From Mytilus edulis (taxonomy: Eukaryota), in NCBI RefSeq assembly GCF_963676685.1, contig NC_092345.1, positions 8,184,001-8,248,000 of the forward strand: 64,000 nucleotides of DNA, in the 5' to 3' direction. Of the stretch, positions 41,701 to 47,700 are shown piece after piece; position 1 is the first letter of the stretch; each line of letters opens with the position of its first letter. Position numbers: made by a program.

Positions 41701-44700
41701 TGGTCATAAACCTTTTATGCATACCTAAGCAAGCCCATATTGAAGAGTGTACAGGATCTCCTAATACATAATTGTCTTACCTGGCCAGAAAGGATTATGT
41801 GTTCTGGATCTCCTAATATATAGTTGTCTTACCTGGCCAGAAAAGATTATGTGTTCTGGATCTCCTAATACATAATTGTCTTACCTGGCCAGAAAGGATT
41901 ATGTGTTCTGGATCTCCTAATACATAATTGTCTTACCTGGCCAGAAAAGATTATGTGTTCTGGATCTCCTAATACATAATTGTCTTACCTGGCCAGAAAG
42001 GATTATGTGTTCTGGATCTCCTAATATATAGTTGTCTTACCAGGCCAGAAAGGATAATGTGTTCTGGATCCCTTAATATATAGTTGTCTTACCTGGCCAG
42101 AAAAGATTATGTGTTCTGGATCTCCTAATACATGATTGTCTTACCTGGCCAGAAAAGATTATGTGTGCTGTATCTCCTAATATATAGTTGTCTTACCAGG
42201 CCAGAAAGGATTATGTGTGCTGTATCTCCTAATATATAGCTGTCTTACCTGGCCAGAAAAGATTATGTGTTCTGGATCTCCTAATACATAATTGTCTTAC
42301 CTGGCCAGAAAAGATTATGTGTGCTGTATCTCCTAATATATAGTTGTCTTACCAGGCCAGAAAAGATTATGTGTTTTGGATCTCCTAATACATAATTGTC
42401 TTACCAGGCCAGAAAGGATTATGTGTGCTGTATCTCCTAATATACAGTTGTCTTACCTGGCCAGAAAGGATTATTGTGTTCTGGATCTCCTAATATATAG
42501 TTGTCTTACCTGGCCAGAAAAGATTATGTGTTCTGGATCTCCTAATATATAGTTGTCTTACCTGGCCAGAAAAGATTATGTGTTCTGGATCTCCTAATAT
42601 ACAGTTGTCTTACCTGGCCAGAAAAGATTATTGTGTTCTGGATCTCCTAATATATAGTTGTCTTACCTGGCCAGAAAAGATTATGTGTGCTGTATCTCCT
42701 AATATACAGTTGTCTTACCAGGCCAGAAAGGATTATGTGTGCTGTATCTCCTAATATATAGTTGTCTTACCTGGCCAGAAAAGATTATGTGTTCTGGATC
42801 TCCTAATACATAATTGTCTTACCTGGCCAGAAAAGATTATGTGTTCTGGATCTCCTAATACATGATTGTCTTACCTGGCCAGAAAAGATTATGTGTGCTG
42901 TATCTCCTAATATATAGTTGTCTTACCAGGCCAGAAAGGATTATGTGTGCTGTATCTCCTAATATATAGCTGTCTTACCTGGCCAGAAAAGATTATGTGT
43001 TCTGGATCTCCTAATACATAATTGTCTTACCTGGCCAGAAAAGATTATGTGTGCTGTATCTCCTAATATATAGTTGTCTTACCAGGCCAGAAAAGATTAT
43101 GTGTTTTGGATCTCCTAATACATAATTGTCTTACCAGGCCAGAAAGGATTATGTGTGCTGTATCTCCTAATATACAGTTGTCTTACCTGGCCAGAAAGGA
43201 TTATTGTGTTCTGGATCTCCTAATATATAGTTGTCTTACCTGGCCAGAAAAGATTATGTGTTCTGGATCTCCTAATATATAGTTGTCTTACCTGGCCAGA
43301 AAAGATTATGTGTTCTGGATCTCCTAATATACAGTTGTCTTACCTGGCAAGAAAAGATTATTGTGTTCTGGATCTCCTAATATATAGTTGTCTTACCTGG
43401 CCAGAAAAGATTATGTGTGCTGTATCTCCTAATATACAGTTGTCTTACCAGGCAAGAAAGGATTATGTGTGCTGTATCTCCTAATATATAGTTGTCTTAC
43501 CTGGCCAGAAAAGATTATGTGTTCTGGATCTCCTAATACATAATTGTCTTACCAGGCCAGAAAGGATTATGTGTTCTGGATCTCCTAATACATAATTGTC
43601 TTACCAGGCCAGAAAGGATTATGTGTGCTGTATCTCCTAATATATAGTTGTCTTACCTGGCCAGAAAAGATTATGTGTTCTGGATCTCCTAATACATAAT
43701 TGTCTTACCTGGCCAGAAAGGATTATGTGTTCTGGATCTCCTAATACATAATTGTCTTACCTGGCCAGAAAAGATTATGTGTTCTGGATCTCCTAATACA
43801 TAATTGTCTTACCTGGCCAGAAAGGATAATGTGTTCTGGATCCCTTAATATATAGTTGTCTTACCTGGCCAGAAAAGATTATGTGTTCTGGATCTCCTAA
43901 TACATGATTGTCTTACCTGGCCAGAAAAGATTATGTGTGCTATATCTCCTAATATATAGTTGTCTTACCAGGCCAGAAAGGATTATGTGTGCTGTATCTC
44001 CTAATATATAGTTGTCTTACCTGGCCAGAAAAGATTATGTGTTCTGGATCTCCTAATACATAATTGTCTTACCTGGCCAGAAAAGATTATGTGTGCTGTA
44101 TCTCCTAATATATAGTTGTCTTACCAGGCCAGAAAAGATTATGTGTTTTGGATCTCCTAATACATAATTGTCTTACCAGGCCAGAAAGGATTATGTGTGC
44201 TGTATCTCCTAATATACAGTTGTCTTACCTGGCCCGAAAGGATTATTGTGTTCTGGATCTCCTAATACATGTATATAGTTGTCTTACCTGGCCAGAAAAG
44301 ATTATGTGTTCTGGATCTCCTAATATATAGTTGTCTTACCTGGCCAGAAAAGATTATGTGTTCTGGATCTCCTAATATACAGTTGTCTTACCTGGCCAGA
44401 AAAGATTATTGTGTTCTGGATCTCCTAATATATAGTTGTCTTACCTGGCCAGAAAAGATTATGTGTGCTGTATCTCCTAATATACAGTTGTCTTACCAGG
44501 CCAGAAAGGATTATGTGTGCTGTATCTCCTAATATATAGTTGTCTTACCTGGCCAGAAAAGATTATGTGTTCTGGATCTCCTAATACATAATTGTCTTAC
44601 CAGGCCAGAAAGGATTATGTGTGCTGTATCTCCTAATATATAGTTGTCTTACCTGGCCAGAAAGGATTATTGTGTTCTGGATCTCCTAATATATAGTTGT

Positions 44701-47700
44701 CTTACCTGGCCAGAAAAGATTATGTGTTCTGGATCTCCTAATATACAGTTGTCTTACCAGGCCAGAAAGGATTATGTGTGCTGTATCTCCTAATATATAG
44801 TTGTCTTACCTGGCCAGAAAAGATTATGTGTTCTGGATCTCCTAATATATAATTGTCTTACCAGGCCAGAAAGGATTATGTGTGCTGTATCTCTTAATAT
44901 ACAGTTGTCTTACTGGCCAGAAAGGATTAATGTGTTCTGGATCTCCTAATATATAGTTGTCTTACCAGGCCAGAAAAGATTATGTGTGCTGTATCTCCTA
45001 ATATATAGTTGTCTTACCTGGCCAGAAAGGATTATTGTGTTCTTGATCTCCTAATATAAAGTTGTCTTACCTGGCCAGAAAGGATTATGTGTGCTGTATC
45101 CCCTAACATCCAACATAACTGGTCCAGGTTGTCGTTTAAGTGATAATGAATTTCTGGCATTTTCACTGATATTAGCAAGATATTCCTGAAAAAAAACCAT
45201 ATAATAACCTACACCTATGTTTTACTATAAGTTACCTGCCTGTAAAAGTACACAGCTTTCATTGGATACTTGTTTAATGTGTAACTGTGCACAATAGCTA
45301 ACTTTAGCCTAGGATTAAAACTTTCAATAAGAACTTTCACTTAATTCCTTACTATTTGTTTGAAAATTTTCTGGGGACATTTTGCTGTGACGCCAACATA
45401 TATATGTTTGTTTTTAAATTTTAACTACATGTATATTGGGCTATGAAACATAAATTATCCATACTTTAATTAGGAATTCAATAATGAAATCATTAAGTGA
45501 TGCAAGTAGCTTAGTTTCTTTTGTTACCTATTTTGAGTTTAACTGTGCAGATTGCTGTGTGTTTGTTTATTCTACATTGGCTAGAGGTATAGAGGAGGGT
45601 AGAGATCTCACAAAACATGTTTAACCCCTCCATATTTTGCACCTGTCCCAAGTCAGGAGCCTCTGGGCTTTGTTAGTCTTGTATGTTAGTTCATTTATAA
45701 TAATGTTTCAGAGTTAAGTGTGACATCCATTTCATTGAAGGAGTACACATTTTTGTTTGGGGGCCAGCTGAAGCATGCCACATGGTGAGGGATTTTCTCC
45801 CTAAATTGAATACCCATTGGTGGCCTTCAGCTGTTATCTGCTCTTTGGTCAGGTTGTTGTCTCTTTGTCACATACCTCATTTCCATTCTCAATTTTATGT
45901 AGAAAAATTACCTCTTTATAACCTAACAATACACCAGTAGTAGGATTTCTCACTACATCTATTTTGGTTTGACAAGGACAAACATCTGAAGAGTACAAAT
46001 TCTCTGGGCAAGGTTCTCTCTTCCAGAATCTAAAAAATAAAATTTCAAATTTAAATGTTGTTTTTTTTTATAAAAATATCTTACAGGAAACAAATTACAC
46101 AATATCTTTTACATCGTGATAAATATGATGAAACTGAAAATACATGTATATGATTTCCCAAGTTCTTTTTAATTTCTGCATGTTTACACTGTTGCTACAG
46201 TAAATTGTTAATTTACCAAAATATGTTAATATTATAAAGGGAAAGATACCAAATTGAGAATAAATACCAGACCAACAAAATAATAACAAACACTGAAACA
46301 GCTAAAATTGAAAAATATATAAAGGTTTCTCATTTTTTATAAGGATTAGACCGTTGGTTTTCCCGTTTGAATGGTTTTAAACTAGTAATTTTGGGGCCCT
46401 TTATAGCTTGTTGTTCGGTGTGATCCAAGGCTCCGTGTTGAAGGCCGTACATTGACCTATAATGGTTTACTTTAATAAATTGTTATTTGGATGGAGAATT
46501 GTCTCATTGGCACTCACACCACATCTTCCTATATCTATCTCTCTATAAATATAGTAATTTACTCACTTTCTATTGATTTCTGTTCCGTGAGTTCATACTT
46601 TCTTAATTCAAACTTCTAGTAAGTAGATTCACATAAGACTTATAGATACTTATAAATATTATTTACAGATAATTCACCAGCTTACTTTTGACTTCTGTTG
46701 ATACTATTAATAGGTAAGTCATCAATACATGTCAGATATTCTTCTAATTCTTCTTTCCATTCTTCCATAGCTGTCTTTTCTGTCATCTGTCTATAAAAGG
46801 TTAAAAAAAAATTAGTCTTATGATGAAGGTATTGATACTTTCTTTTATTTCAATCATTTGCTCCACTAAAATTCTCCTAAAAATTAAGTTTTTATAAAAT
46901 TGTACTTAGTTGCAAAATTATACCTCTATAATTAATCTTACTGTATTGAATACGTCAAATTCAGTATAAGGGGTATGATAGCCAATGAGAAAACTGTCCA
47001 CCATGATAACCATAGAATAAATAGTCCTTCTCTGAATATTCTGTGCATTGAGTTTGTGTACTTCGATGTTAAATCATAATACAGTTGCCTACTTGTTTCT
47101 TAAGTTAGAATTAAAACTCATTAAATGTTATTATAGTACGTAACACTATTGTTTCAGATAAGGGAGAAGGTTTCCTGCCATTAAAACGATTAATCCCACT
47201 GCAATTGATTGCAACTGTCCTATAAATCAGGAATCTGATGTTCAGTAGTTGATGTTTGATGTTTGTTGATGTGGTTCATAAGTGTTTTTTGTTTCTTGTT
47301 TTTTCGAATGCTAGTCAATTCGTTCCAAGTCCGATTCGTTCCAAGCCAGTTCGTTCCAGATTTGGACAATTCGTACCAAGTCAATTGTCAATTCGTTCCA
47401 ACTGATTTATTTCATTATTTATCAGATCAGACTTAACAATGTGTTCCACCTGATTAAGTTCATTATTAAATCAGACTTAACAATTTGTTCCAACTTTTTT
47501 ATAATGTATATGTCCGTATATCACTCACTGTATATGTGTAAATCAACCTACAGTGCACGGCAAAAATCGGCCATTCCTTGTCCATTTTTTTCTGTATATT
47601 TCATCAGAGACATATAATATGTCTCTGATTTCATATAAAAGATCATTTTTCATACTTTGAATGCATTAACAACTGTTATGCGCACATCATAGAAATACAA

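What the first reader, a model, noticed from the sequence alone, without database searches (positions are those of the whole stretch)
41750..45106. About 64 copies of the SKIV2L PFWPG exon end plus CAG|GTAAGA donor: a second independent array in the same gene
Seen: a 52-bp unit of 36 nt exon plus 16 nt intron makes up ~70% of this intron. Most copies keep a strong cag|gtaaga donor; a subset has ctg|gtaaga. Readthrough gives GGT AAG ACA ACT TTA TAT TAG (stop). The conserved junction PFWPG|GLDEP requires donor 1. Inference: the pre-mRNA carries a 3.3-kb polymer of U1 sites, which could matter for donor choice, protection from premature polyadenylation, or U1 titration. Unequal exchange could also feed repeat variants into the coding exon.
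Basis: partly seen in the sequence, partly recalled or inferred. Interest (0 to 1): 0.7.

Follow-up and report, generated by a model that had tools for sequence, protein, structure and literature searches.

The report
Splice-donor repeat array in mussel SKI2
An intron of the mussel SKI2 helicase gene is mostly made of 64 tandem copies of the preceding exon's end plus its splice donor, a very large example of a known but rare kind of repeat that the splicing machinery apparently ignores by using only the first copy.

Summary
A 52-bp unit (36 nt exon tail + 16 nt intron head) occurs 64 times at 41747-45106 on the minus strand and makes up about 72% of a 4,613-nt intron. All 64 copies keep GTAAGAC, and 43 pseudo-donors match the real donor 9-mer exactly. 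The host is the SKI2 (SKIV2L-like) gene of a Mytilus mussel, 99% identical to the named M. edulis protein, so it is not human.

This kind of repeat is already known. Exon-intron-boundary minisatellites are called "mirages" in amphioxus, and the human F7 intron-7 VNTR has identical downstream donors that stay silent. Seven annotated Mytilus proteins all read PFWPG|GLDEP, which implies the first donor. Any later donor would bring in a stop after 7 codons.

Only 26 units are distinct, and a 14-unit block is present three times, so the array grew recently. Whether the GT is specially conserved is marginal (combined p=0.04), and donors do decay in an older array.

New here are the scale (64 copies versus 5-9 in F7), the phylum, and the density. 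Four of 14 arrays in three genes span a donor where 0.46 are expected (p about 0.0005). The proposed roles for bound U1 remain untested.

The parts
45071..45185 (-). Third coding exon of the SKI2 (SKIV2L-like) gene, ending ...NPFWP+G (phase 1). Its last 36 nt (45106-45071) form the exon part of repeat unit 1.
   Evidence: Pfam Ski2_N E=3.6e-8, 33.7 bits against a cut-off of 23.1. Aligns to human SKI2W residues 121-156. tblastn of the M. edulis protein P0001.
45062..45070 (-). Authentic 5' splice site (donor 1). GT is at 45070-45069 and the 9-mer is CAG|GTAAGA.
   Evidence: Direct reading. All 7 named Mytilus proteins read PFWPG|GLDEP.
41747..45106 (-). The 52-bp array: 64 units of 36 nt exon tail + 16 nt intron head, then an 11-nt partial unit (41764-41754). 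It contains 63 pseudo-donors.
   Evidence: TRF, anchors and unit listing, column counts, unit types and 14-unit blocks.
40458..41746 (-). Non-array remainder of the intron, ending in the acceptor ...tttttcag. It holds about 135-bp dispersed or tandem repeats and all 4 poly(A)-signal-like hexamers of the intron.
40386..40457 (-). Fourth coding exon, starting (G)GLDEPDIDNLNE...
   Evidence: Direct reading. tblastn of P0001 residues 110-135.
30132..30563 (-). Second junction-spanning array in the same gene: 72 bp x 6 (62 nt of the helicase-C exon tail + GTGAGTTAAT).
   Evidence: P0001 goes from residue 694 straight to 695.
59663..64000 (+). Same kind of array in the neighbouring WDR6-like gene: 92 bp x 47 or more (82 nt exon tail + GTAAGTATGT). 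It runs off the window end.
1..795 (-). Same kind of array in a third gene (970-aa M. edulis product P0160): 34 bp x about 23 (about 15 nt exon tail + about 19 nt intron head). It is older and more diverged, and runs off the window start.

Best explanation
This is a junction-spanning minisatellite of the 'mirage' type in intron 3 of a Mytilus SKI2 (SKIV2L-like) gene. A 52-bp segment covering the last 36 nt of the exon and the first 16 nt of the intron was duplicated in tandem. It was then amplified to 64 copies by slippage or unequal exchange, most recently by duplications of a block of about 14 units (about 730 bp). The array has no function of its own. It is tolerated because the spliceosome uses the most upstream of the identical donors, as shown experimentally for the human F7 intron-7 minisatellite. 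The other 63 copies then simply lie inside the intron, and any transcript that used one would carry a stop 7 codons past the exon end and should be degraded. Shown here: the anatomy, the host gene, the recent block amplification, and that annotated proteins imply donor 1. Inferred: the mode of amplification, first-donor choice at the RNA level, and neutrality.
For: Anatomy and exact register with the exon. Only 26 of 64 units are distinct. Units 31-44 and 45-58 differ by 0-2 positions per unit (14-unit shift: 9 consecutive identical units), and units 11-24 match both. That is a signature of recent unequal exchange, not of long-term conservation. The M. edulis reference protein P0001 (99% to the exon searched; about 100% over most exons) and 6 other named Mytilus proteins from 5 species all read PFWPG|GLDEP with no insertion. 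Readthrough hits a stop after 7 codons. Three more arrays of the same build occur in the window, and annotated proteins use one copy of the exon tail in each. Precedents: in human F7 IVS7 the first unit spans the exon 7 boundary, there are 5-9 identical donors, only the most upstream is used, and the pseudo-sites are functional but silent (PMC1557585: abstract and Discussion read). In amphioxus, mirages do not disturb normal splicing and vary in length (PMC3087553: abstract and section 16 passages; PMC3902484: one passage). Pseudo-donors do decay in the older 34-bp array, where GT is kept in 21 of 23 copies and GTAAGT in 16 of 23.
Against: No RNA data were available, so donor use rests on annotated protein models, which may themselves be predictions. 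The donor hexamer is the least variable 6-nt window in the 34-bp array (1 of 34 windows) and among the least variable in the 52-bp array (4 of 52). Combined over the four arrays, Fisher p=0.042. This could mean weak selection to keep donors. Junction-spanning arrays are about 9 times more frequent here than random placement predicts (4 observed, 0.46 expected, P=0.0005). A purely neutral, random-origin model does not explain that. Predicted RNA structure gives donor 1 no accessibility advantage (rank 48 of 64), so why donor 1 wins is not explained by anything in the sequence.
Confidence: 0.7

Rival explanations
1. The array is a selected polymer of U1 snRNP binding sites. Many bound U1 particles would suppress premature cleavage and polyadenylation, or aid elongation, in a long AT-rich intron. 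The donors would then be kept by selection.
For: All 64 copies keep GTAAGAC. The donor hexamer has the lowest error count in 2 of 4 arrays, with combined p=0.042. All 4 poly(A)-signal-like hexamers of the intron lie downstream of the array. Junction arrays are enriched.
Against: The invariance is largely explained by youth: 26 distinct units and blocks less than 1% diverged. Position -2 is weakened (CTG) in 19 of 64 copies and -1 is lost in 1. In the older 34-bp array 5 of 6 donor positions have mutated at least once and 7 of 23 hexamers have changed. By number of positions hit, the donor is unremarkable (30 of 34 and 58 of 92 windows are as low or lower). The four arrays sit in three unrelated genes with very different copy numbers (6 to 64). 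No conservation across species could be tested.
Confidence: 0.12
2. The array is removed stepwise. The exon tail ends in a pyrimidine-rich stretch plus CAG, directly followed by GTAAGA, which resembles a recursive splice site. Any splice from donor j to the tail of unit k would delete whole units from the RNA and regenerate the same donor, so the array would be self-correcting.
For: The motif ...TCCTTTCTGGCCAG|GTAAGA is present in most units. A mis-splice from a late donor to the true acceptor would leave an AG exactly at the junction, so donor 1 could in principle re-splice to the correct product (inference from the sequence).
Against: The other three junction arrays end their exon tails in TG, TT and CG, not AG, so this cannot explain the class. 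Steps of 52 nt are short for an animal intron, the pyrimidine tract is weak compared with the true acceptor, and there are no RNA data.
Confidence: 0.05
3. The pseudo-donors provide regulated unproductive splicing. Use of a downstream donor would make a transcript with a premature stop and tune SKI2 dosage.
For: Every pseudo-donor choice introduces a stop 7 codons after the exon end, and 43 pseudo-donors are identical to the real 9-mer.
Against: None of the 7 named Mytilus protein models, including isoforms X1 and X2, reflects such a junction, though degraded transcripts would rarely be annotated. In the F7 model pseudo-sites are not used at all while the first site is intact (PMC1557585).
Confidence: 0.08
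4. The copy number, or the array itself, is an assembly artefact of a long repeat.
For: Kilobase arrays of near-identical units are hard to assemble, and amphioxus authors reported a mis-assembled mirage in a draft genome (PMC3087553, supplementary-file legend seen).
Against: The array has structured variation (26 unit types and an ordered 14-unit higher-order pattern) and clean unique flanks on both sides. Three other arrays of the same build occur in the same window. No reads were available to test copy number.
Confidence: 0.05

Closest known systems
Human F7 (coagulation factor VII) intron 7 37-bp VNTR (PMC1557585)
   Same: The first monomer spans the exon-intron boundary, so the authentic donor is followed by downstream donors of identical sequence. 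Use of the first donor gives the normal mRNA. It is a polymorphic minisatellite.
   Different: F7 has 5-9 donors spaced 37 bp apart. This array has 64 donors spaced 52 bp over 3.3 kb, in a mollusc. For F7, silence and latent function of the pseudo-sites were shown with 50 constructs. Here nothing is shown at the RNA level.
Amphioxus 'mirage' minisatellites (Adh3, troponin C, globins BflGb6/BflGb9, PGBD5; PMC3087553, PMC3902484)
   Same: [quoted passage not shown] They show concerted evolution and length instability, and several occur per genome.
   Different: The reported mirages have few units (3-6 in BflGb6; Adh3 units of 10-72 bp) and affect both 5' and 3' boundaries. All four arrays here are at donors, have up to 64 or more units, and are in a bivalve. 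The original Adh paper was not available to me. I know it only through these two citing papers.
Recursive splice sites (ratchet points) of long Drosophila and vertebrate introns (recalled, not looked up)
   Same: A 3'-splice-site-like end is juxtaposed with a donor (pyrimidines-CAG|GTAAG) inside an intron.
   Different: Those are single conserved sites in very long introns. Here the motif is a by-product of copying an exon end that happens to finish in CAG, and the other three arrays lack it.
Rogers' tandem-duplication model of intron gain (as cited in PMC3087553)
   Same: A tandem duplication that includes an AG|GT junction creates extra splice signals.
   Different: No new intron or exon has been created here. 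The copies lengthen an existing intron.

Membership tests
Mirage-type (exon-intron boundary) minisatellite | Head-to-tail repeat with a minisatellite-sized unit | tested here: met
   Period 52, 64.3 copies, 91% matches.
Mirage-type (exon-intron boundary) minisatellite | The first unit contains the genuine exon-intron boundary, so the splice signal is repeated | tested here: met
   Unit 1 is the last 36 nt of a Ski2_N-coding exon plus the first 16 nt of the intron. 64 of 64 units carry GT.
Mirage-type (exon-intron boundary) minisatellite | Normal mRNA is still made and the repeated signals are not used | tested here: inconclusive
   7 of 7 named Mytilus protein models read PFWPG|GLDEP, but no transcript reads were examined.
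Mirage-type (exon-intron boundary) minisatellite | Length instability and concerted evolution | tested here: inconclusive
   Indirect only: 26 distinct units of 64 and three near-identical 14-unit blocks. No second haplotype or individual was available.
F7-IVS7-type array of 5' pseudo-sites | [quoted passage not shown] | tested here: met
   43 of 63 downstream 9-mers equal the authentic CAGGTAAGA. 19 are CTG variants and 1 is a CCA variant.
F7-IVS7-type array of 5' pseudo-sites | Only the most upstream donor is used, and pseudo-sites become active if it is destroyed | not testable with these tools
   Needs RNA data or minigenes.
Recursive splice site | Strong pyrimidine tract + AG directly followed by a GTAAG donor, in a very long intron, conserved | tested here: not met
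   AG|GTAAGA is present, but the tract is short (TCCTTTCT), the intron is only 4.6 kb, and the three sister arrays lack AG at the exon end. Conservation is untestable.
SKI2/SKIV2L helicase (host gene) | Ski2_N, DEAD, Helicase_C and MTR4-like stalk regions in order, and orthology to named SKI2 proteins | tested here: met
   Exon-by-exon Pfam hits. 99% identity to M. edulis 'superkiller complex protein 2-like' and 70-74% to other bivalves. 24 collinear tblastn segments between 46786 and 22254.

The most novel reading that the evidence does not exclude
Mussel genomes may have a process tied to 5' splice sites that seeds and expands tandem duplications whose right-hand breakpoint lies 10-19 nt inside the intron. 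This would produce kilobase polymers of fully functional donors in many genes. In this window four such arrays sit in three genes, about 9 times the number expected by chance, and none sits at an acceptor. If so, the arrays report a splicing- or U1-linked source of DNA breakage or repair. They also show a spliceosome that reliably picks the first of up to 64 identical donors. Array-exon exchange may occasionally rewrite coding sequence, as the Ser/Tyr codon hints.
Probability: 0.2. Interest if true: 0.75.

Novelty: new member of a known kind. Interest (0 to 1): 0.45.

Why it matters
With 43 downstream donors identical to the real one over 3.3 kb, this is an extreme natural test of how a 5' splice site is chosen. 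It is far beyond the 5-9 copies of the F7 model, and public mussel RNA-seq could test it directly. Finding four such arrays in 64 kb suggests that boundary-spanning minisatellites are common in Mytilus. That matters for three reasons:
- Repeated exon ends invite false exons in gene annotation.
- These arrays could be a large source of structural variation in highly polymorphic bivalve genomes.
- They bear on models in which tandem duplication of splice junctions creates or lengthens introns.

If the enrichment holds genome-wide, it would point to a mutational process coupled to splice donors.

Tried and rejected
- **Gapless self-comparison.** It was blurred by 53-nt units and was replaced by unit-level comparison.
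- **First donor-conservation test.** It cut units at the best GTAAGT match, which biases towards the donor. The regex segmentation found only 5 units, and one search added a false 65th unit. I replaced these with an unbiased wraparound alignment, which gave the same marginal result.
- **PDB search with the 23-aa next exon.** It found nothing at E up to 10.
- **Pfam on the three exons of the P0160 gene.** It gave only sub-threshold hits (UPAR_LY6 E=0.043, Dickkopf_N E=0.029), so I do not name that domain.
- **RNA structure masking the pseudo-donors.** Rejected: donor 1 ranks 48 of 64 for predicted accessibility.
- **Rfam.** There were 0 matches in the whole window, so no known RNA gene explains the array.
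- **48-bp x 70 array (3108-6390).** I checked it as a fifth junction array and rejected it. It starts about 35 nt after a donor and holds no exon sequence.
- **C. elegans intronic minisatellite paper (PMC4039745, abstract only).** It is not about boundary-spanning repeats.
- **Literature searches.** They found no report of such arrays in molluscs. One search failed on a search-term format error.
- **Not possible here.** I could not compare the locus with other Mytilus genomes or reads.
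Full report
**Source of the window.** The window has no N and is 32.9% G+C. A single exon (28280-28585, minus strand) is 99% identical to the named protein "superkiller complex protein 2-like [Mytilus edulis]" and 70-74% identical to other bivalve SKI2 proteins. The focal exon aligns to human SKI2W residues 121-156 at only about half identity. The window is therefore mussel DNA, not human. I searched the gene exon by exon only. I did not build or search a joined spliced model. 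Exon order and junctions were read by aligning database proteins to the window.

**The observation.**
- Tandem Repeats Finder reports 41747-45106 with period 52, 64.3 copies and 91% matches.
- The gene is on the minus strand. There are 64 exact GTAAGAC sites, spaced 52 nt (55 times), 53 nt (7 times) and 59 nt (once).
- Each unit is the last 36 nt of the exon plus the first 16 nt of the intron.
- The exon is 45185-45071 and ends ...NPFWP plus one G of a split codon. It matches Pfam Ski2_N above the curated cut-off (E=3.6e-8).
- Donor 1 is at 45070, the acceptor AG is at 40459-40458, and the next exon begins (G)GLDEP at 40457.
- The intron is 4,613 nt, and the array fills about 72% of it.
- Readthrough from the exon gives ...PFWPGKTTLY and a stop.
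- The donor 9-mers are CAGGTAAGA in 44 of 64 (including the real donor), CTGGTAAGA in 19 and CCAGTAAGA in 1.

**Host gene and donor use.** The M. edulis protein P0001 (1203 aa) maps as 24 collinear segments from 46786 down to 22254. It reads ...RGYSTHNPFWPGGLDEPDIDNL... across the focal intron. All 7 named proteins in its cluster have the same junction with no insertion. These come from M. edulis, M. trossulus, M. californianus, M. galloprovincialis (3 entries) and M. coruscus. The unnamed 91%-identical protein P0002 has it too. This is evidence from annotation, not from transcripts.

**How the array grew.** Only 26 of the 64 units are distinct. Variation sits mainly at eight high-frequency positions that define subfamilies. 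Units 31-44 and 45-58 differ by 0-2 positions per unit, with 9 consecutive identical units at a shift of 14 units. Units 11-24 match both of those blocks. A block of about 14 units (about 730 bp) was therefore duplicated twice very recently, as expected from unequal exchange. This means that 64 intact GTs out of 64 are far fewer than 64 independent observations.

**Is the donor specially conserved?** My first test cut units at the best donor match, which biases the result. I repeated it with a wraparound alignment of each whole array to its cyclic consensus.

| Array | Donor hexamer error rate | Rest of unit | 6-nt windows as low or lower |
|---|---|---|---|
| 34 bp | 0.051 | 0.128 | 1 of 34 |
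| 52 bp | 0 | 0.057 | 4 of 52 |
| 72 bp | 0 | 0.033 | 39 of 72 |
| 92 bp | 0.0035 | 0.017 | 25 of 92 |

- The Fisher combination gives p=0.042, which is marginal.
- Counted by positions ever hit, the donor is ordinary. In the 34-bp array 5 of 6 positions have been hit, with 30 of 34 windows as low or lower.
- In that older array the GT survives in 21 of 23 copies and GTAAGT in 16 of 23.
- So pseudo-donors do decay, perhaps somewhat more slowly than their surroundings. They are clearly not being eliminated faster.
- CpG sites and an (AC)n run in the 34-bp unit may inflate variation outside the donor.

**A class, not a single case.** Three other arrays have the same build, and the annotated protein contains one copy of the exon tail in each.
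- **72 bp x 6 at 30132-30563.** This is in the same gene: 62 nt of the helicase-C exon plus GTGAGTTAAT.
- **92 bp x 47 or more at 59663-64000.** This is in the WDR6-like gene on the plus strand: 82 nt of exon plus GTAAGTATGT. The M. edulis protein P0129 is 100% identical and reads ...GPDGLI|HCYELSS.
- **34 bp x about 23 at 1-795.** This is in a gene for a 970-aa M. edulis product, P0160, which reads ...SCTHPN|DSNING.

In all four arrays, readthrough meets a stop within 3 to 22 codons. I placed the 14 TRF arrays that lie inside these three genes at random in 200,000 trials. On average 0.46 arrays spanned a donor, and 4 or more did so with probability about 0.0005. None spans an acceptor. The intron share of the unit is 10, 10, 16 and about 19 nt. 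With four cases, that is not significantly short by my hand calculation (p about 0.16, not a tool result).

**What is known.**
[quoted passage not shown] They have since been reported in amphioxus globin, troponin C and PGBD5 genes. They have few units, are unstable in length and do not disturb splicing (PMC3087553: abstract and section 16 passages; PMC3902484: one passage).
- I could not obtain the original Adh paper. One search found only the two papers that cite it.
- In human F7, a 37-bp minisatellite whose first unit spans the exon 7 boundary gives 5-9 identical donors. Only the most upstream is used, and the others work only when those upstream are destroyed. The authors propose 5'-to-3' scanning (PMC1557585: abstract and Discussion).
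- Searches combining Mytilus or bivalve with these terms found no molluscan report.

**A hint of age and of exchange with the exon.** The exon tail is ...RGYSTHN... in the M. edulis complex (edulis, trossulus, galloprovincialis). It is ...RGSSTHN... in M. californianus and M. coruscus, and also has Ser there in P0002. The two main unit families differ at the second base of exactly that codon. Forty units have TC(C/A), which encodes Ser. Twenty-four units, including the exon copy, have TA(C/T), which encodes Tyr.

So the majority family carries what is probably the ancestral residue. There are two readings. Either the array predates the Ser-to-Tyr change, and the exon copy and the array have since exchanged sequence, or this is a coincidence. 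I estimate the chance of coincidence at roughly 5% by hand. The outgroup codons are inferred from protein only.

All 63 downstream units have A, or another change, where the exon has the G of a conserved Gly codon. Exchange has therefore not reached the left edge of unit 1, or such products are selected against.

**Other checks.**
- Predicted local RNA structure does not make donor 1 more accessible than the pseudo-donors; it ranks 48 of 64.
- The intron has 4 poly(A)-signal-like hexamers, all downstream of the array. This neither supports nor refutes a U1 role.
- Rfam finds nothing in the window.
- The exon tail of the 52-bp unit ends in a short pyrimidine run plus CAG before GTAAGA, which looks like a recursive splice site. 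The three sister arrays lack AG there, so this does not explain the class.

**Verdict.** This is a real and very large junction-spanning minisatellite of a known kind. Most likely it is a tolerated by-product of slippage and unequal exchange, made harmless by first-donor choice. The new points are its size, the phylum, and the local excess of such arrays at donors, which a random neutral origin does not explain.

Noticed in passing
window 3108-6390 (minus strand): A 48-bp x 70 array (89% matches) fills most of the intron after the exon ending ...CSPGE of the P0160 gene. It starts only about 35 nt downstream of that donor but contains no exon sequence.
   Followed up: partly
window 40882-41121 and 41396-41683: Two pairs of about 135-bp repeats (67-85% identity to a reference copy) lie in the non-array part of the focal intron. 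They look like a dispersed short element or old satellite.
   Followed up: partly
window 46786 (SKI2 start, minus) and 51003 (WDR6-like start, plus): The SKI2 and WDR6-like genes are arranged head to head, with their first coding segments about 4.2 kb apart. Both named proteins come from the same 108-Mb M. edulis contig.
   Followed up: no
window 781-894, 2899-2973, 6422-6505 (minus strand): The first exons of the 970-aa product P0160 show a cysteine pattern that I recall as Ly6/uPAR-like (...CEKCCTTDKCN...). Pfam gives only sub-threshold hits (UPAR_LY6 E=0.043).
   Followed up: partly
window 2187-2702: A 20-bp array of about 24 copies (82% matches), with 40-bp and 24-bp sub-periods, lies in an intron of the P0160 gene.
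   Followed up: no
window 14991-15526 and 13461-13587: A 264-bp unit is present twice at 99% identity and contains an internal palindrome. Nearby there are short palindromic 19-65-bp repeats. These may be mobile-element ends.
   Followed up: no
window 34916-35260: A 31-bp x 11 array lies inside another SKI2 intron, about 350 nt from the nearest donor. It is an ordinary intronic array, useful as a contrast to the junction-spanning ones.
   Followed up: partly
window 41765-45106, unit columns 16-21 and 34-39: In the major unit family, CCAGAA and TTCTGG can pair as a perfect 6-bp hairpin just upstream of the donor (MFE -5.6 kcal/mol). The two linked differences from the exon-type unit both improve this pairing. 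Its significance is unknown.
   Followed up: partly
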